Position numbers and translations under genes: made by a program
Shown: positions 11,001 through 17,707 of the stretch, one piece after another
Position numbering within the stretch: position 1 is the stretch's first letter
Layout: each line of letters begins with the position of its first letter
Virus record (IMG/VR): IMGVR_UViG_3300011008_000041
Location: 1 to 64,000 of that record
DNA from: a virus
Lineage: Duplodnaviria > Caudoviricetes
DNA length: 64,000 nucleotides
Direction: 5' to 3' (one strand)
Notes under the pieces: model-generated
Database searches by the model: none
Seen by the model: the letters and a program-made list of their open reading frames with translations, nothing else
Told to the model about the DNA's origin: nothing

Positions 11001-13043
11001 TTAAAAGAGGATTTTCATAATTCGTTCTGTGGCTCCTTTGACCTTAACCACCAGCGTATTCCGCTTGGTGGAGCTGAAGCCAAGTCCGGAGAGCTGGTCG
11101 GGCACGGTCTGAACAGCCATCTTGCCGCCGAGCGCCTCGAATACCCGCTTGTGTTCAGCAAGCTCCTGTTTCAGAAACTCGTTATAAAAGCCGTTGGGCT
11201 GTTCGGGGTTGACGCAGTCTTTGAGCATGAAGAAGTAGTGGCGATGGCCGATGCCTGTCTGAGCGTCCCAGTAATTGGGGGAATACATTGCTACAGTCAC
11301 GGGGACAAAGTTGTTGGTTTTCACGCCCCACAGATCAACCGATGCTGTATCGGCGGGAAGTTTGGTAACGATAGTGAACGTTCCATCCGGTTTCAGCTGG
11401 ACAGCGGCAACATCGACGTTTTCGCCCTGGCGGAGTTCTTTGCGGTAGTCGAACCGGAAGATTTGTCCATCGAATTCGATTTCTGCCCGAAAACCATCAC
11501 GCCCACCGCGATTGGCATACTGGTGTACGAAGAAGTTGTAAACACCGGGATACATGCGGCGCTTATCGGGCCAGGTGATGTTTTCTACCGCAGGAACTCC
11601 ATCAATTGGGTGGGTAATGTCCACGTCGAGGTTGCCTCCGTCAGAAACCCGCTTATGACCGAAGAAGATATGCTCATCCATCGGCGTTATACAATGCGCA
11701 TCGAGGTCGTTCCGGCTGTATTCGCCTGTATCATTCCACTGAATGGAAAAGCGCAGAACGCCATCCACCCGGCCACCGGCCGATTTGACATTTTCCTTCA
11801 CGTCGCTATCGGTGATGTTTCCGGAATAGGCCCAGGAAAACGAGTTGTTCCACTTGAACATGCTAGGCGCGTCGGCGTTCACCGGGGCGATAAGGGACAC
11901 CATGTTGGGAGCATGGCGGTTCTCCACATACACCTCCATTTCGGTCACGCAAGGGAGCACATCGGCAATGAACTTATTCACCGGGATTTCCTCGGCGCGG
12001 TCGAACCGCTTAGGTGTGGTTTTCGCCTCAGAGAGCATTTCGTCGAACACGGAGCCGCCAATTCTCTTGGAAGCGTCGCGATTGGAAAACAGGATGTTGT
12101 TCACGGTGATATCATCCAGGGTTGCGAAGCGCCGAGGCAGAGAATCCATATAGCCCAGATCGGTGATTTTCTGCTTAGCCTCCTCCAGCATCCTCGCGGT
12201 AAAGATAGCTTTAGGCCGCTTGTAGTTTGCCGGGGCAACGATCTTCTCGTAGCGTGTCACCGCGGCATTCAGATCCATACCCGAGGACACATCCGTCAGC
12301 AGGACGCCGATAGAATGATTGCGGATGCGCCCGATCACAGAACCAACATTGGGCGCCTCTTTCCACGCAAAGAGCGATTTCTTCTCTTCGGACAGCATGT
12401 CATAGACCTCTTTGCGGGATTTGAACGCCGCAAGAGGCTTTTTCCACTCCTCGCCCTTGTAGAGCGTATTGGATACGATCAGTTCCAGGATGGTGTCGAG
12501 GGCGACCATGCTGATTTCGTCCAGCGAGCGCTTGAATACGTTGCGAGTGTCCCGGCGCTGGCCACGCGCGGTATCGATAGTGTCTCGCGTAGTGTTCGTG
12601 AGATAGCCCGGAAGAAGCAGGTGGAAATGATCCCATGCCCTAATCTTTCCGTTGTCGTTCTCGTGAGAAACGTCAGTGCCTATATAGCGTTCTCTTGCGA
12701 TGTAGTAGCCCGTGATGTTGCATCCAGTCACATAGGCCGCAAGCGCATCCATGACAGGCTGGTAGGTGGTGCTCCCGGTGTCGAATTCAAAGATGCTGTG
12801 CATCGTCAGATCGTCATCGATGTACACAACGCCGCCAATTTCCTTGATGAAGTGGCGGCAGCAGGAACAGTCGTGTTCCCGGCGCTCCCGGAAGATTTCG
12901 TTTGTACCGGCAGGGAAACTGTCAAGGTACAGGTTCCAAAGGGCATCTTTATCGACATCCGTTTCAAACAACAGTCGTTCGGGATCCTCGACGGACCGTT
13001 TGAAATTTGCCAAGAGCTTGAGTTTCATTTCTTTGAAGCTCAT
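11001..13043 (-). CDS. 680-aa conserved phage protein with HDCSCC motif and YfaP/DUF2135-like domain
   Basis: HDCSCCRHFI; VLRFSIQW..NDLDAHC..GNLDVDI..AVENITW. Confidence 0.8.
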   Translation of the reverse strand: MSFKEMKLKLLANFKRSVEDPERLLFETDVDKDALWNLYLDSFPAGTNEIFRERREHDCSCCRHFIKEIGGVVYIDDDLTMHSIFEFDTGSTTYQPVMDALAAYVTGCNITGYYIARERYIGTDVSHENDNGKIRAWDHFHLLLPGYLTNTTRDTIDTARGQRRDTRNVFKRSLDEISMVALDTILELIVSNTLYKGEEWKKPLAAFKSRKEVYDMLSEEKKSLFAWKEAPNVGSVIGRIRNHSIGVLLTDVSSGMDLNAAVTRYEKIVAPANYKRPKAIFTARMLEEAKQKITDLGYMDSLPRRFATLDDITVNNILFSNRDASKRIGGSVFDEMLSEAKTTPKRFDRAEEIPVNKFIADVLPCVTEMEVYVENRHAPNMVSLIAPVNADAPSMFKWNNSFSWAYSGNITDSDVKENVKSAGGRVDGVLRFSIQWNDTGEYSRNDLDAHCITPMDEHIFFGHKRVSDGGNLDVDITHPIDGVPAVENITWPDKRRMYPGVYNFFVHQYANRGGRDGFRAEIEFDGQIFRFDYRKELRQGENVDVAAVQLKPDGTFTIVTKLPADTASVDLWGVKTNNFVPVTVAMYSPNYWDAQTGIGHRHYFFMLKDCVNPEQPNGFYNEFLKQELAEHKRVFEALGGKMAVQTVPDQLSGLGFSSTKRNTLVVKVKGATERIMKILF

Positions 13044-13064
13044 AAGGCGCTGTTCTCCTTTCTA

Positions 13065-13634
13065 TTAATCATAGGTTTCGCGGGCTTCCATCTGCTTTAC
13101 ACCGCCCTCCCAGCAATCGCGGCAGTATACACCGGCGAAGTACCGGCCCGCGATCTCGGCGGTGCTGATGATCTTCCCGCATTTTGAGCAGGGGATATAA
13201 CCCTCGCAAAACTGCTTGGTTTGCTCCTCGATCCACTCGATGAAGTCGTCAGTTGGCGGTTGGCTCATGCTACGGATCGTAAACTCACCGATATGTCGGT
13301 CGAAGTCATCCCACAAGGAAAACAGGCCAGCATCTAGCCGTATTCCTTTGTGCGTGTTGTGGTAAACGGAGAACTTGAACCGCTTGTTTTCTCGGATAAG
13401 GTAGAACTCGTGGTTGCCAAGGTTCATTTGCATGAGCTCGTTCCGCAGGGCGTGAACCTTGTCCAGCATTTCAACGCCCTCATCCCATGTCACCCCGCAG
13501 CGCTGCATTTCCCGAAACACATTCCTGGGATAGATCTGTTTCGTTACGGTGTTGAACCAGGGGTAAACAGGCAAGCCGACAAAGAGTTCCTGCCAGATAC
13601 TCTCGATCAGATTGGCTTGTTTAGTCCGCTCCAT
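13065..13634 (-). CDS. hypothetical protein with C-terminal Zn finger
   Basis: CSKC..CRDC; RBS before MERTK. Confidence 0.65.
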   Translation of the reverse strand: MERTKQANLIESIWQELFVGLPVYPWFNTVTKQIYPRNVFREMQRCGVTWDEGVEMLDKVHALRNELMQMNLGNHEFYLIRENKRFKFSVYHNTHKGIRLDAGLFSLWDDFDRHIGEFTIRSMSQPPTDDFIEWIEEQTKQFCEGYIPCSKCGKIISTAEIAGRYFAGVYCRDCWEGGVKQMEARETYD

Positions 13635-14193
13635 ACTTCGCCTCCATCTTCTCGATGAATGCATCGACCTGAGCGGTGACCCAGTCCTGGACGGTCTCAT
13701 AGCCCTCGGCCTCGATGTACCTCTGTAACCGCAGGAACTTGTCATCCGGGAGTCGCCCCGCAACACGGGCTGTATACCTATGTCTGCCGCTCCGGTGCTT
13801 TTTCGTCGGCGTGGAAGCGGTCTCATGAGGCGGCGCGGGTTCATCTTCAATGCGGGTCACTCCCGATCCTCCGCAGGGCGGGAGGGGTGGCGCCGGCTCT
13901 TCGGCTGGCACGTTGGCAATGTTGTCCCGAAGAATGGCAAAACCGCCAGGATGAAGTACACAGCCGTACAGGTTCGGCCGGGTGCATTTCGATACGACGG
14001 TTTTATCCAACTTCGGATAGTGTGATCGCAGAAGCCTCGTCGCGTCCTTGGGCGTCAGAGAAGCCGCGTTGATCGCGCCTCTCAGGTCATACCGTTTGAC
14101 AGCGGCATCGAACTCTGCTAAGATGTCTGTGGGTTTACTAGCCTTGGGGTCGTTGTGTGCCAGCACAGCGGCCTCGTTTTCTTTTGTGATCAT
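13621..14193 (-). CDS. hypothetical (possible DNA-binding) protein
   Basis: Coupled ORF; C-terminal RHH-like segment. Confidence 0.6.
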   Translation of the reverse strand: MITKENEAAVLAHNDPKASKPTDILAEFDAAVKRYDLRGAINAASLTPKDATRLLRSHYPKLDKTVVSKCTRPNLYGCVLHPGGFAILRDNIANVPAEEPAPPLPPCGGSGVTRIEDEPAPPHETASTPTKKHRSGRHRYTARVAGRLPDDKFLRLQRYIEAEGYETVQDWVTAQVDAFIEKMEAKYGAD

Positions 14194-14639
14194 GCGATAT
14201 TCTCCTGACTGATGTTGTCCATAGCCTCGAACACCGCGGCCAGCTCCGAGAGCGCCCGGTATTTCGCCTTGAATGCCTCAAGCTCTTCCAGCGCGTTCGT
14301 CAGAAGTGCCTTGCGCAGTTCCTCGTTGCTCATGGCCGCATAAAGGGTCGTGTAGCCCTTTTCCGCATGAACGAACTGTCGGACCGGCGTATCGTCCGCG
14401 GCCTCCTGGACAGTAATGTTTCGGATGATGTACTGTGCCTGCACAGTGCGAAATCGCTCCGCAGCGACACGATCATCCCACTCGAACAGAGCGTGAAGCG
14501 GAGCGTCCTCCGCACGGCTGGCATCAACCACCGCCTGCGGTGTCAGTGTCCCGTCCTTGCTCTGGTCCCTGATGCGGTTCAGCTCGGCGACCGCCGTTTG
14601 AACCGGTACCTTCATCGGGATCTTCCATTGATAGGTCAT
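14190..14639 (-). CDS. conserved protein immediately downstream of the GGY-NN array (putative accessory factor)
   Basis: Strong RBS (agaaaggagg); LTPQAVVDASRAEDAPLHALFEWDDRVAAERFRTVQAQYIIRNI motif. Confidence 0.8.
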   Translation of the reverse strand: MTYQWKIPMKVPVQTAVAELNRIRDQSKDGTLTPQAVVDASRAEDAPLHALFEWDDRVAAERFRTVQAQYIIRNITVQEAADDTPVRQFVHAEKGYTTLYAAMSNEELRKALLTNALEELEAFKAKYRALSELAAVFEAMDNISQENIA

Positions 14640-14678
14640 TGGGGTTTCCTCCTTTCTTTCAGATTTGCTCTTCACGGC

Positions 14679-15819
14679 GCGCCTAAACTAGCCGTGCCTC
14701 GGCGACCCAAACCACGCCTGCCCATCCGCTCCGGACCGCACCACAACGCATCATTCCAAACCACGCCTGCCAAACCGAACCCTTCCGATCCCATCCGCAC
14801 CGGACCTAACCTTGCCTGCCATACCACGTCCACCCTCGGCTCTACCGACCTCGCCATCCATGCCTGCCAGCCTTGCCATTCCGTACCGCGCCGAACCTTG
14901 CGTCAACGCGCCATGCCGAGCCGCGCCTGCCATAACGTTCCCTTCCGGGCCCAACTCTGCCTTGACAAGCCATGCCAGCCAGTCCACACCTGAGCATGCC
15001 GTTTCCCACCGGAACTGACCTCGCCTTGCCCGCCATGCCTCACAGATCCAAAGCGAACACTACCGAAGCCAACCATGCCCGCCGCGCGTAGCCACCTCGT
15101 ACCGTAACTAGCCTCAGCAAACCGGGCCTGCCATGCCCAGCCATGTCCCGCCTTGACGTTCCGAACCTGAACGGACCATGACTGCCAAACCGCCCGTGCC
15201 GTACCGGGCGCAGCCTACCCGGACCATGCCAGCCGTACCGTACCAAAGCCCACCACAACAAGCCGTGCCATGTCACACCGGAACTGCCTTGCCTGGACGT
15301 GCCTGACCTCGCGTCGACTTTCCACGCCTAGCCTAGCCTGGCAAACCGTACCGAAGCTCATCCAACCGGAACCAACCGAGCCCCGCCTAAACCCGCCTGT
15401 CATATATGTACCGAGCCCAGCCCCGCAAAGCCGTTCCACAACTGGCCCTTCCTTGCCTGCCGCACCGAGCCTTTCCAGACCGTGCCTAGCCCCAGCGAAG
15501 CATGCCCCGCCTGCCGCACCGAGCCGAACCTTGCCAAACCCCGCAAGACCCAGCCTAAACAGAGCGAACCGTGCCTTGCCTGCCTTGCCGGACCTAGCCG
15601 GGACAAACCGGGACTTGACACACCTAGCCTGCCGGGCCATTCCACGCTCTGCCACGACGCACCGCTCAGGACCACGCCATTACGTGACTTGCCTTGCCTG
15701 CCAGTCCATGCCATAACGAGACGCGCCAAGCCCCGCCATCCTTACCCTGACCGCCGTACCGAACCAATCCAGAACGGGCCCAGCCAAACCGGAACATGAC
15801 TTACCCAGCCGTGCCTGTC
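14679..15819 (-). ncRNA. array of about 21 putative guide RNAs built from GGY-NN pentamers (VIPR-like)
   Basis: Strict 5-nt periodicity (plus strand NN+RCC-like triplet), broken every 8-13 pentamers by a 4-nt unit (tgcc/agcc/cgcc; GGCAGGC on minus). Starts 7 nt after the RAMP stop; no credible ORF. Confidence 0.85.
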
Positions 15820-15825
15820 GCGGAA

Positions 15826-16494
15826 TTACTCGATATGAAACATTCCTGACTGCCCGGATTTCTCGACACGCCACTCACCGATGCCGCAGACCATCCCGGC
15901 AGCGTTGATCATGTTCACGATATTCTCCAGGGAATACTGGCCGTTCTTGTTGTATTTCAGGATCACGTCTGTGCTCCAATTGCGGAACTCGCCGCGGTAA
16001 CGGAGATCGGCGGTGCCAAGGCCGACTTTGACCATATCCTCGCGCATGATCGGGGGGTCGCTAATGATCTCCAGCATGTCGAGGCCGCTATCCCCGAGTT
16101 GGCCGACGCCGTACAGGAAGAACGCACCCTGCAGGGAGACCTTGTCCTTCGACCACCCCATACGATAGGCGGCGCTTATCGCAGCCTTTTTGAGTCCGAC
16201 CACAGGGAAACCAAACCGGGCACCCTTGGCGATGGCCTCCTCAAACGCCTCCTCGGTCATTTCCGTGGGCTTCTCGGTGAGCCAGTACATGGAGTTGATG
16301 AAATCCTCGACGGGGTTCTTTACGGGCTTCTTCTTGCCCTTCGCGAGGCCCATCTGCGCCTCCAGCATCTGCCGCTTGGCCTTCTCGCTCCAGCAGTGGA
16401 CGATCAGGGGCGTGTCACCGACGATATGAAGGGTGACCTGGGCCATGTCCAGAGGGCGAACTTCAACGATCTCATCATTCTTCTTGGTTGCCAT
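15826..16494 (-). CDS. stand-alone Cas7/RAMP-like protein (Vipr-like), 222 aa
   Basis: RBS+ATG at 16494; VTLHIVGDTPLIVH strand, FGFPVVGLKKAAISAA helix (cf. IPGSSLKG), C-terminal Gly loop GMVCGIGEWRVEKSGQSGMF. No other cas genes in the window. Confidence 0.8.
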   Translation of the reverse strand: MATKKNDEIVEVRPLDMAQVTLHIVGDTPLIVHCWSEKAKRQMLEAQMGLAKGKKKPVKNPVEDFINSMYWLTEKPTEMTEEAFEEAIAKGARFGFPVVGLKKAAISAAYRMGWSKDKVSLQGAFFLYGVGQLGDSGLDMLEIISDPPIMREDMVKVGLGTADLRYRGEFRNWSTDVILKYNKNGQYSLENIVNMINAAGMVCGIGEWRVEKSGQSGMFHIE

Positions 16495-16523
16495 TTGCAA
16501 TTTCCTTTCTGCCGTGCTATAAT
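16495..16523 (+). promoter_or_regulatory. sigma70-type promoter TTGCAA-17-TATAAT with extended -10, antisense to the early operon
   Basis: ttgcaa 16495-16500, tgc+tataat 16515-16523. Confidence 0.6.
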
Positions 16524-16552
16524 GACGGCGCAACAAAATATTTTTGGTGTTT

Positions 16553-16591
16553 GCCGCTTCGGATGTTCCAGCATCCGGGGCGGCGCTTTTT
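16553..16591 (+). terminator. GC hairpin plus T-run
   Basis: gccgcttcggatg-ttccag-catccggggcggc-gcttttt. Confidence 0.55.
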
Positions 16592-16835
16592 ATTCCTGTT
16601 CTGGAACAGAAATCTCGATCTCGCCATCCATGGCATTCAGCTTGTCGATTGTGATCCCTGCGGCTTCAAGTTCCTTGCCTTTCCTCTCGTACATCCGCAG
16701 GGTGTACATCTGCTGTCGGCGTCGGTACCGAATTCGCTCTTCCTTTTTGGCGAGCTTCACATGCGGCGACGCTTGGAGGCGTCTGATTTCCTCCTCGACC
16801 TCGGCATCCGTCATGCACCGCTTACCTTCTGCCAC
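16590..16835 (-). CDS. hypothetical protein
   Basis: Short ORF with RBS. Confidence 0.65.
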   Translation of the reverse strand: MAEGKRCMTDAEVEEEIRRLQASPHVKLAKKEERIRYRRRQQMYTLRMYERKGKELEAAGITIDKLNAMDGEIEISVPEQE

Positions 16836-16989
16836 TTTTCTTCACCTCCTTCTCAGCGATTCGGACGCAGATACCCGCGACGGCTATGGAGCCAATCGCC
16901 CAGAGCGGACGGGTTTCGATCAAGGCCGGGCCGACAATAAAGATCATCAACGCTGCCGTGCTGTAGAAAATGTTCTGTGCCTTGTTCAT
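16822..16989 (-). CDS. small membrane protein (55 aa; not in ORF track)
   Basis: MNKAQNIFYSTAALMIFIVGPALIETRPLWAIGSIAVAGICVRIAEKEVKKSGRR; RBS aggggtga. Confidence 0.55.
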   Translation of the reverse strand: MNKAQNIFYSTAALMIFIVGPALIETRPLWAIGSIAVAGICVRIAEKEVKKSGRR

Positions 16990-17141
16990 ATTGGTTCACC
17001 CCTTTCGTCATGCGTTTTGGCCCATTCCTCATATTCCCGTTTTAGCTCTGGATCGCTCAGCGCCAGTCGAACACTGTCATTCAGCGCTCGGCATGAAGCC
17101 TCCCATACGCTTTCAGGAATTAGTTTTGGATCGATGCCCAT
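16986..17141 (-). CDS. hypothetical protein (51 aa)
   Basis: RBS agaaagga before MGIDPKLIP. Confidence 0.6.
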   Translation of the reverse strand: MGIDPKLIPESVWEASCRALNDSVRLALSDPELKREYEEWAKTHDERGEPI

Positions 17142-17162
17142 AAATGGATCCTTTCTTCTGCC

Positions 17163-17462
17163 TATCCGCTCCACGGTGCCAACACAGGGTTGTCGTACTT
17201 GGAACCCCACAAGACAGACATTCAGACAGACAGTGTAATCGTGTGTTCGTGTTGGCACTATGGAACGGATAAGTAGTTTGGCGTACTTGGTCGTTCGATC
17301 TATCCGCTCCACGGCACCGCCATCCTCCGATAAGGTCAGAAAGGAGATATGTCACAATGGCAGCAGTCATCCGCATGAAGGGGTAGCGCAGCGCGCTCGC
17401 TCTTGGCCATCAAGCGGCTCGATGGAGCAAGAGTAAAGAATGGCGGCACGGTGGAACGGATA
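17163..17462 (-). ncRNA. two tandem structured RNA units closed by homologous 23-bp stems
   Basis: TATCCGTTCCA..TGCC...GG(C/T)(A/G)CCGTGGAGCGGATA brackets at 17301-17462 and 17163-17271, with compensatory changes. Confidence 0.55.
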
Positions 17463-17479
17463 ATCCTTAGTGGCTCATT

Positions 17480-17707
17480 TTAGGCGCATTTATGCGACTT
17501 TTGAGACAAAAAAATAGCGATTGCTTCATCCGTGGTCAGATCCAGAACTTCGCACATCTTATGTATGTCCCTTATCTGTAGGCGACCGGAATTCAGGCGT
17601 CTCCTTAAAGTTGCGCGATCAATGCCCAATTCTTCTGCCAAGACCTCTTGAGTGATTCCACATTCAACGATTTTTGCCTGCAATTTCTTTATATCGATTT
17701 GATACAT
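17480..17707 (-). CDS. Cro-like HTH regulator
   Basis: ITQEVLAEELGIDRATLRRRL HTH; divergent from the repressor. Confidence 0.85.
   Translation of the reverse strand: MYQIDIKKLQAKIVECGITQEVLAEELGIDRATLRRRLNSGRLQIRDIHKMCEVLDLTTDEAIAIFLSQKSHKCA

What the first reader, a model, noticed from the sequence alone, without database searches (positions are those of the whole stretch)
15756..15867. First guide decodes to the RAMP gene's own C-terminal loop, with apparent self-avoidance
Unit 15756-15815 has plus-strand NN string GT GA AA AG GG CA AA GG AT TT CA GT, which as NNx reads V-E-K-S/R-G-Q-N/K-G-M-F-H-V. The adjacent gene (15832-15867) encodes GTC GAG AAA TCC GGG CAG TCA GGA ATG TTT CAT ATC = V-E-K-S-G-Q-S-G-M-F-H-I. 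9/12 dinucleotides (19/24 nt) match when every third base is skipped. My binomial estimate is about 3e-9 per position, about 7e-3 over all guides and both strands. One mismatch is the synonymous Ser swap TCN vs AGY. This supports a pair-2/skip-1 code that ignores the wobble base. Inference: the guide targets homologous genes of rival phages while the own copy has diverged.
Basis: partly seen in the sequence, partly recalled or inferred. Interest (0 to 1): 0.93.

Follow-up and report, generated by a model that had tools for sequence, protein, structure and literature searches.

The report
Phage VIPR guide aimed at rivals' vipr
The first guide RNA of this phage's VIPR system (a CRISPR-like, RNA-guided DNA silencer described in 2026 preprints) matches the last codons of the vipr gene of related phages almost perfectly but its own copy less well, so it is a real, well-supported new example of a known kind of phage-versus-phage weapon.

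Summary
Unit 15756-15815 is 12 pentamers (NNRCC on +, GGYNN on the transcribed - strand). Its NN string matches the phage's own gene at 15832-15867 in 9/12 dinucleotides (19/24 nt). That is the best site in the 72-kb genome, and none of 2000 shuffled guides equalled it.

The reading is essentially right but already published. This is a VIPR system (bioRxiv 10.64898/2026.04.26.720920 and 10.64898/2026.10.15.759431), made of a Vipr RAMP protein, GGY/NN guide RNAs that read targets by a "1-nt skip" rule aligned to the codon wobble base, and an accessory gene. Here the array is of the "staggered" form. This scan has already met VIPR loci on at least eight other genomes.

New detail found here:
- The guide scores 20-23/24 on the homologous site of every relative examined, and lowest (19/24, under the published 0.8 cut-off) on its own gene.
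- No perfect 24/24 target was found.
- A phage whose Vipr is 98% identical carries the same guide changed at two dinucleotides, which are exactly this phage's allele (22/24 on this phage, 18/24 on itself). Targeting therefore looks reciprocal.
- Substitutions at codon positions 1-2 between these genes pile up in the 36-nt footprint.
- One mismatch is a synonymous serine codon-family switch (AGC to TCC).

Function is inferred, not shown.

The parts
15826..16494 (-). vipr gene (222 aa plus stop), a stand-alone RAMP/Cas7-like protein. The TTG at 16536 listed by the ORF finder is an over-extension; homologues start at the ATG at 16494.
   Evidence: Profile hit to PDB 36pp_D 'SUSP1 Vipr protein', E 4.8e-11. 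AF2 pLDDT 84.5 with top Foldseek hits Csm3/Cas7 subunits. 4603 homologues, typically 215-222 aa. phrog_4652.
15832..15867 (-). Own-gene site homologous to the guide-1 target: codons V210-I221 (VEKSGQSGMFHI), just after the G-loop motif GIGEWR. It has 5 mismatched informative nt (TCC vs AG, TCA vs AA, ATC vs GT).
15756..15815 (-). First vrRNA guide of the array: 12 GGYNN pentamers on the - strand. The NN string in sense orientation is GT GA AA AG GG CA AA GG AT TT CA GT.
   Evidence: Target scores.
15752..15755 (-). 4-nt punctuation (GGCG here, GGCA in most units) that ends guide 1 and shifts the pentamer register by -1. This is the mark of a staggered array.
   Evidence: Legend of fig. S18 in 10.64898/2026.04.26.720920.
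14681..15815 (-). Whole vrRNA array: about 210 pentamers in about 20 units of 8-14 pentamers, with start-to-start spacings of 49/54/59/69 nt.
   Evidence: Period-5 autocorrelation and position composition (pos 3 is 85% purine, pos 4-5 are C). The array is conserved directly downstream of vipr in 19 of 23 IMG/VR loci.
14190..14639 (-). Candidate vap accessory gene (149 aa plus stop), conserved directly after the array.
   Evidence: phrog_15946. Synteny in L001-L020 and L137-L146. AF2 pLDDT 92 but only weak forkhead/winged-helix-like fold hits.
14873..14927 (-). Guide unit matching family-A DNA polymerase motif A (FIVADFSAIEA) of other phages. Used here as an independent test of the code.
15235..15284 (-). 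Guide unit matching the N-terminus (V-I/V-NPTKVITG) of PF10991 Enc34-type ssDNA-binding proteins encoded about 1.8 kb from those PolA genes.

Best explanation
The locus 14190-16494 (- strand) is a phage VIPR system: vipr (a RAMP protein), a staggered array of about 20 vrRNAs built of GGYNN pentamers, and a vap-like accessory gene.

By the published mechanism, Vipr subunits hold the GGY of each pentamer. The NN dinucleotides pair with double-stranded DNA while skipping one target base per unit, so a guide reads codon positions 1-2 and ignores the wobble base. The bound complex represses transcription.

The first guide (15756-15815) is directed at the last 12-13 codons of the vipr genes of related, competing phages (consensus VEK-S/G-GQNGMFHV). 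A complex parked there sits about 15-30 bp ahead of the rival's own guide array and vap. It would therefore act as a roadblock that cuts off the rival's guides and accessory protein.

The carrier phage is spared because its own site differs at five informative bases:
- a synonymous Ser switch to TCC,
- Asn to Ser (TCA),
- Val to Ile.
This puts its score at 0.79, below the level seen for natural targets.

Shown here: family membership, the code, the target scores, the reciprocity and the clustering of substitutions. Inferred: that the RNA is made, that it binds, that 19/24 is too weak to bind, and the roadblock effect.
For: VIPR membership:
- Vipr profile hits solved SUSP1 Vipr, E 4.8e-11.
- Csm3/Cas7 fold.
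- GGY/NN pentamers with GGCA punctuation.
- Conserved vipr-array-vap synteny in 19 of 23 IMG/VR loci and in Logan/ENA contigs.

Code:
- The PolA unit has more than 112 IMG/VR hits, all in frame in ORFs of about 660 aa; 45 of them match at the full 22/22.
- The SSB unit matches at 19/20 against a null maximum of 16.

Guide 1 scores:
- Own gene 19/24.
- L137 21, L140 22, L138/L139 23, L144 23, L141 23, L017 23, L143/L145/L146 21, L147 20, L001-type 20.
- The shuffled null over all vipr genes reaches at most 0.83.
- Both relaxed-pattern collection scans hit only vipr C-termini.

Reciprocity: guide 1 of L137 (Vipr 98% identical) differs from this one only at two NN, TC for AA and AT for GT. Those are this phage's own codon states. 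It scores 22/24 on this phage and 18/24 on itself.

Footprint-focused divergence at codon positions 1-2:
- Versus L137: 4/24 substitutions inside the footprint against 2/420 outside (p = 9e-5).
- Versus L138: 6/24 against 3/420 (p = 1e-6).

Against:
- The own-site score of 0.79 is only just under the bioinformatic 0.8 cut-off, which is not a measured binding threshold, so self-sparing is unproven.
- No perfect 24/24 target was found.
- Protein C-termini often vary anyway, which could inflate the clustering statistic.
- Only two arrays out of 25 loci examined carry an anti-vipr guide, so reciprocity rests on one pair.
- The vap fold is not significantly assigned.
- No promoter was detected upstream of vipr by the sigma-70 scan.
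Confidence: 0.72

Rival explanations
1. Autoregulation. The partial match (19/24) lets the phage's own Vipr-guide-1 complex bind weakly at the end of its own vipr gene. This would throttle read-through into the array and vap as negative feedback.
For: The site lies directly upstream of the array in the same operon. The own site is the best match in the phage's genome. A score of 0.79 is only marginally below 0.8. This possibility was also raised in the scan note e1-5794747.
Against: A feedback site should co-vary to keep its match. Instead, in both phages that carry the guide, the own gene scores lower than foreign alleles (0.79 vs up to 0.96, and 0.75 vs 0.92). The two guide differences track the other phage's allele. 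In published surveys no self hits of at least 0.8 were seen.
Confidence: 0.12
2. Relic or drift. The guide once targeted a relative or an ancestor of the own gene. The present own-gene mismatches and the differences between alleles are ordinary C-terminal drift, without current selection or function.
For: The last residues of the protein vary across the family. No perfect target was found. Three of the 12 pentamers in guide 1 have a degenerate GT scaffold and one has GGA.
Against: The crossed pattern (each guide carries the other's allele at both variable codons) is not expected from drift. The Ser AGC/TCC switch needs two or three substitutions while keeping the residue. All three differences between the two guides fall in NN positions and none in 36 scaffold positions. 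Codon position 1-2 changes are about 40-fold enriched in the footprint.
Confidence: 0.12
3. Chance resemblance, or a cis RNA structure. In the second case the 3' end of the vipr mRNA would pair with the adjacent guide to form a hairpin, terminator or processing signal.
For: The two segments are adjacent and antiparallel in one transcript, and the MFE fold pairs parts of them.
Against: The fold is not better than shuffles (z = -0.65; 47 of 200 shuffles fold as well). A 3-nt against 5-nt register cannot form a regular helix. Chance is excluded by 0/2000 shuffles and by 23/24 hits in four unlinked lineages.
Confidence: 0.02

Closest known systems
VIPR systems with staggered vrRNA arrays (bioRxiv 10.64898/2026.04.26.720920, text and fig. 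S18 legend)
   Same: A phage-borne stand-alone Vipr RAMP protein, guides of 9-16 GGY/NN pentamers, the 1-nt skip rule aligned to the wobble base, an adjacent vap gene, and targets in competing phages. Consecutive guides abut with a 1-nt overlap; here that is the tetramer GGCA followed by G, giving a -1 register shift.
   Different: Vipr is only distantly related to the characterised type II SUSP1 protein; the profile match covers only the C-terminal 80 residues. There is no roughly 40-nt pseudoknot tail between guides. The gene order is vipr-array-vap. The VIPR type (I-VII) could not be assigned because the paper's tree and figures are not available to the tools.
[quoted passage not shown]
   Same: [quoted passage not shown] They are wobble-aligned and proposed to cut off vipr/vap expression of rivals. 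In the same work, vrRNA-targeting vrRNAs have lower self than non-self scores.
   Different: There the carriers have lost vipr, so they have no self-targeting problem at that gene. Here the carrier keeps its own vipr and must differ from its own guide. Two near-identical VIPR-positive phages carry guide alleles matching each other's vipr allele.
[quoted passage not shown] S15)
   Same: VIPR-positive prophages carrying guides against other VIPR loci ('sword and shield').
   Different: Details of site, allele specificity and escape are not given in the text available to me. The clade and array architecture are different.
Class 1 CRISPR Cas7 backbones (type III Csm3/Cmr4, type I Cas7)
   Same: RAMP fold, with Foldseek top hits 9ash_F, 9g9g_D and 8do6_E. 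There is periodic interruption of guide-target pairing by a thumb.
   Different: No CRISPR repeats and no other cas genes. The period is 5 nt of guide to 3 nt of target, instead of 6 to 6. The scaffold sequence (GGY) lies inside the guide.

Membership tests
VIPR system | Vipr protein: stand-alone RAMP homologous to characterised Vipr | tested here: met
   An hmmsearch with a profile of 28 homologues hits PDB 36pp_D 'SUSP1 Vipr protein', E 4.8e-11, aligning the G-loop region CGVGEWRP to CGVGDWRP. The AF2 model (pLDDT 84.5, pTM 0.78) has Csm3/Cas7 chains as top Foldseek hits, E 2e-5, prob 1.00.
VIPR system | vrRNAs made of tandem GGY/NN pentamers (9-16 per guide) with a conserved scaffold and hypervariable NN | tested here: met
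   210 pentamers. On the + strand, position 5 is C in 195/210, position 4 is C in 160/210, position 3 is a purine in 178/210, and positions 1-2 are variable. Units have 8-14 pentamers. Guide 1 has 12.
VIPR system | Guide boundary element: an invariable 3' tail (type II) or a staggered 1-nt-overlap junction | tested here: inconclusive
   No tail or pseudoknot lies between units. Instead a 4-nt GGCA shifts the register by -1 every 49-69 nt, which fits the wording of the fig. S18 legend. The figure itself and RNA ends could not be inspected.
VIPR system | Targets obey the 1-nt skip rule, with the skipped base at the codon wobble position | tested here: met
   Guide 1: 23/24 in frame at vipr C-termini. 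PolA unit: 22/22 in frame, more than 112 hits. SSB unit: 19/20 in frame in a PF10991 gene.
VIPR system | Adjacent vap accessory gene with a predicted DNA-interacting fold | tested here: inconclusive
   A conserved 145-168-aa gene follows the array in nearly all loci. Its confident model (pLDDT 92) gives only weak forkhead/winged-helix-like matches (E 0.7-4). There are no Pfam, NCBIfam or PDB sequence hits.
VIPR system | No self-target at or above 80% NN identity on the source contig | tested here: met
   The best self score of guide 1 is 19/24 = 0.79, and the next is 18/24. Other units reach only null-level scores on the genome. The margin is small.
VIPR system | vrRNAs expressed, bound by Vipr, and the RNP binds dsDNA and represses transcription | not testable with these tools
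No biochemical tool is available.
CRISPR-Cas (class 1) | CRISPR array of direct repeats separated by spacers, plus further cas genes (cas1/2, large subunit, Cas5/6) | tested here: not met
   The repeat search finds only the pentamer families. There is no Rfam hit. Neighbouring ORFs have no Cas Pfam families.

The most novel reading that the evidence does not exclude
Closely related VIPR-positive phages form incompatibility 'types'. Each carries, as the first guide of its array, an allele-specific guide against the other type's vipr 3' end, and keeps its own allele mismatched. Escape from a wobble-blind guide proceeds partly through the only synonymous route open at codon positions 1-2, namely switching between the two codon families of a six-fold-degenerate residue (Ser AGC to TCC), plus substitutions at tolerant C-terminal residues. 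This would be a directly observable guide/target arms race within one gene family and a natural measure of the mismatch tolerance of VIPR.
Probability: 0.45. Interest if true: 0.5.

Novelty: new member of a known kind. Interest (0 to 1): 0.35.

Why it matters
The system and its gapped code are already published, so the finding does not open a new field. It does three useful things.

First, it confirms without wet-lab data that the VIPR code holds in a distant, uncultivated, staggered-array clade. That clade is large: 4603 homologues in the protein collection.

Second, it gives a clean natural pair for testing how many mismatches VIPR tolerates. The available alleles score 19, 21, 22 and 23 of 24, and there is a reciprocal guide scoring 18 against 22.

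Third, it shows how a VIPR-positive phage can aim at its own gene family without autoimmunity. It also shows that six-fold-degenerate codons are a loophole in 'wobble-proof' targeting, which matters both for understanding phage-phage conflict and for designing programmable VIPR guides.

Tried and rejected
- blastn of 13000-17500 against the phage collection gave no match.
- Rfam gave no family for the array.
- Pfam and NCBIfam gave nothing for vipr or vap.
- The exact-pattern scan for the guide with position 4 freed found only the L017 contig in IMG/VR. With positions 4 and 11 freed, JGI metagenomes gave only L141 and the same L017 contig.
- Reading the pentamers as true codons (NNR translated) was rejected. 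The third base is a purine regardless of the target codon (TTG for Phe, GAA for Asp, ATG for Ile in the PolA unit), so only NN carries information.
- A cis RNA hairpin between the gene end and the guide was rejected (z = -0.65).
- All 163 units of 23 arrays were scanned against all vipr genes. Only this guide and its L137 homologue exceed the null.
- The other window units were scanned against the own genome and the vipr loci, with null-level scores only.
- The 'SNF2 motif V' unit (15634-15698) found nothing above the null in the 112 PolA-flanking loci (18/26 against a null of 19). It was not scanned against a whole collection, so that claim remains untested.
- The sigma-70 promoter scan found no - strand promoter upstream of vipr.
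- The vap fold search gave no significant match.

Full report
**What is there**

The window is most of a 72,096-nt phage genome. Between two - strand genes lies a 1.14-kb non-coding stretch, 14681-15815. It has a strict 5-nt periodicity: the autocorrelation of C peaks at 5, 10, 15 and so on.

On the + strand the unit is N-N-R-C-C, which is GGYNN on the - strand shared with the flanking genes. Among 210 pentamers, position 5 is C in 195, position 4 is C in 160, and position 3 is a purine in 178. Positions 1-2 are variable, with a composition like codon positions 1 and 2.

A 4-nt element, mostly GGCA on the - strand, interrupts the run every 49, 54, 59 or 69 nt. It shifts the register by -1 and divides the stretch into about 20 units of 8-14 pentamers. 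The finding's unit, 15756-15815, is the first unit after the stop codon of the upstream gene and has 12 pentamers.

**The observation**

They agree at 9/12 dinucleotides, 19/24 nt.

This is the best site for this guide in the whole genome on either strand; the runner-up has 6/12 dinucleotides. None of 2000 guides with shuffled dinucleotide order reached 9/12 anywhere in the genome. At the nucleotide level, 4 of 500 shuffles reached 19/24.

**What it is**

A full-text search found that the system is already described. It is the Viral Interference Programmable Repeat (VIPR) system, reported in bioRxiv 10.64898/2026.04.26.720920, with a follow-up in 10.64898/2026.10.15.759431.

According to those papers:
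- A stand-alone RAMP protein, Vipr, binds vrRNAs built of 9-16 GGY/NN pentamers.
[quoted passage not shown] - The complex represses transcription.
- Natural targets are competing phages and satellites.
- There are array variants, including 'staggered' arrays in which neighbouring vrRNAs overlap by 1 nt.

I tested membership directly.

- Protein. A profile of the 222-aa protein (15826-16494) and 27 homologues hits the solved SUSP1 Vipr protein (PDB 36pp_D) at E 4.8e-11, across the G-loop region. Its AlphaFold model (pLDDT 84.5) retrieves Csm3/Cas7 subunits of type III and type VII CRISPR complexes as top structural matches.
- Synteny. In 19 of 23 IMG/VR loci with a homologue, the gene is followed at once by a GGYNN array with GGCA punctuation and then by a homologue of the 149-aa gene at 14190-14639. 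That gene is presumably the vap. Its model is confident (pLDDT 92) but matches only forkhead/winged-helix domains weakly, so I leave its fold open.
- Array dynamics. Arrays differ in unit number between near-identical phages, for example L010 against L013.

**Independent test of the code**

I did not rely on the papers for the code.

- Unit 14873-14927. My rough estimate of the number expected by chance is about two. All hits are in frame in ORFs of about 660 aa, at family-A polymerase motif A (FIVADFSAIEARV). In 45 of the 112, the two further dinucleotides also match, giving 22/22.
- Unit 15235-15284. This matches the N-terminus (VINPTKVITG) of a PF10991 Enc34-type ssDNA-binding protein at 19/20. 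That protein is encoded next to those polymerases. The shuffled-guide maximum was 16/20.
- Third position. The third pentamer base is a purine whatever the target codon is.

**The first guide and its target**

The 36-nt site lies in the last 13 codons of vipr, just after the G-loop motif GIGEWR. Scores of the window's guide 1 on the homologous site are as follows:

| Allele | Score (of 24) |
|---|---|
| Own gene | 19 (0.79) |
| L147 | 20 |
| L001-type | 20 |
| L137 | 21 |
| L143 | 21 |
| L145 | 21 |
| L146 | 21 |
| L140 | 22 |
| L138/L139 | 23 |
| L144 | 23 |
| L141 | 23 |
| L017 | 23 |

More distant family members score 13-18. The best score of one shuffle of each of 163 guides against all vipr genes was 0.83.

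The own gene is thus the worst match within its subclade, and the only one below the 0.8 identity used in the papers to call natural targets.

Scans with one or two positions freed returned only 23/24 sites, all in vipr genes.

**Evidence for self-avoidance beyond a single score**

- Clustered protein differences. The Vipr of contig L137 is 98% identical to the window's: 5 residue differences, 4 of them in the last 7 residues.
- Clustered nucleotide differences. Substitutions at codon positions 1-2 are concentrated in the footprint. Against L137 there are 4 of 24 inside and 2 of 420 outside (Fisher p = 9e-5). Against L138 there are 6 of 24 inside and 3 of 420 outside (p = 1e-6).
- Reciprocal guides. 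L137 carries the homologous first guide. It is identical in all 36 scaffold positions and differs only at two NN: TC instead of AA, and AT instead of GT. Those are exactly the window phage's own codon states (Ser TCA, Ile ATC), while the window's guide carries L137's states (Asn AAC, Val GTC). The L137 guide scores 22/24 on the window's vipr and 18/24 on its own. Targeting is reciprocal and allele-specific.
- Serine codon switch. The serine at footprint position 4 is AGC in L138, L145, L146 and L147, which matches the guide. It is TCC in the window, L137, L140 and L143. This is a synonymous change between the two serine codon families. It is the only kind of synonymous change visible to a guide that ignores the wobble base.

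**Mechanism**

Most likely (confidence about 0.7), guide 1 directs the Vipr complex to the 3' end of rivals' vipr genes. In this clade's gene order (vipr-array-vap), that site is immediately upstream of the rival's guide array and vap. A transcriptional roadblock there would disarm the rival. The follow-up paper proposes the same logic for end-of-gene vipr guides. The carrier is spared by five mismatched informative bases.

What is shown here is membership, the code, the scores, the reciprocity and the substitution clustering. Expression, binding, the threshold and the roadblock are inferred.

Rival explanations:
- Autoregulation of the phage's own operon through the partial match. This is disfavoured because own scores are lower than foreign scores in both carriers.
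- A relic with ordinary C-terminal drift. This is disfavoured by the crossed guide/allele pattern and the Ser switch.
- Chance, or a cis RNA hairpin. These are excluded by the shuffles and by a fold z-score of -0.65.

**Novelty**

The kind is known. The scan itself has already reported VIPR loci on at least eight other genomes. Guides against vipr, including its 3' end, and lower self-scores are in the 2026 preprints.

What I could not find in the text of the two preprints I read:
- A VIPR-positive phage aiming at its own gene family while carrying a diverged copy.
- A reciprocal pair of guide alleles in 98%-identical systems.
- The six-fold-codon escape route.

These are increments, and they rest on one pair of phages, so I rate this a new member of a known kind with modest interest.

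**Limits**

- No RNA or binding data could be obtained.
- The 0.8 cut-off is a bioinformatic convention.
- The VIPR type could not be assigned.
- The host is unknown. The nearest cultured carriers of this Vipr clade are Gordonia and Mycobacterium phages at 28-38% identity.

Noticed in passing
The phage's own genome has no such site.
   Followed up: yes
window 15235-15284; L133:7720-8277 (-): A guide unit matching at 19/20 the first codons (VINPTKVITG) of a PF10991 Enc34-type ssDNA-binding protein. That protein is encoded about 1.8 kb from the targeted PolA gene on the same strand. Two guides therefore converge on one replication module of other phages.
   Followed up: yes
window 15635-15752: A 118-nt insertion relative to the L137 array. 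That guide found no target above the null in the PolA-flanking loci. Arrays of near-identical phages differ by whole units (also L010 with 8 units against L013 with 1).
   Followed up: partly
window 15343-15457: An apparent 23-pentamer unit with a broken middle (ATATA TGACA on the - strand). In L137 the counterpart is split by a normal GGCA. It is probably two guides with a decayed junction.
   Followed up: no
window 11001-13043 (-) and 11151-13187 (+): A 680-aa ORF (phrog_1735; its L138 homologue is tagged PF26675 DUF8224) is overlapped almost completely by a 678-aa open frame on the opposite strand. This is probably a codon-bias artefact, but the antisense frame is unusually long.
   Followed up: no
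phage records NC_031249.1 32729-33319, MN234179.1, MW534375.1, NC_051648.1 37379-37963 and 29 others: Cultured Gordonia phages (UmaThurman gp39, Pipp, ODay) and Mycobacterium phages (Donkeykong, Quico, Florinda and others) encode homologues of this Vipr at 28-38% identity, annotated 'hypothetical protein'. They are possible tractable models for this clade.
   Followed up: no
window 16552-16585: A 15-bp-stem hairpin sits between the upstream gene (16590-16835, -) and vipr. It is followed by a T-run on the + strand. Its role is unknown; it could be a bidirectional terminator or an operator.
   Followed up: no
L021:3920-5487: In a distant relative (38% identity) the order is vipr-vap-array instead of vipr-array-vap, so the position of the array relative to vap is not fixed in this family.
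   Followed up: partly
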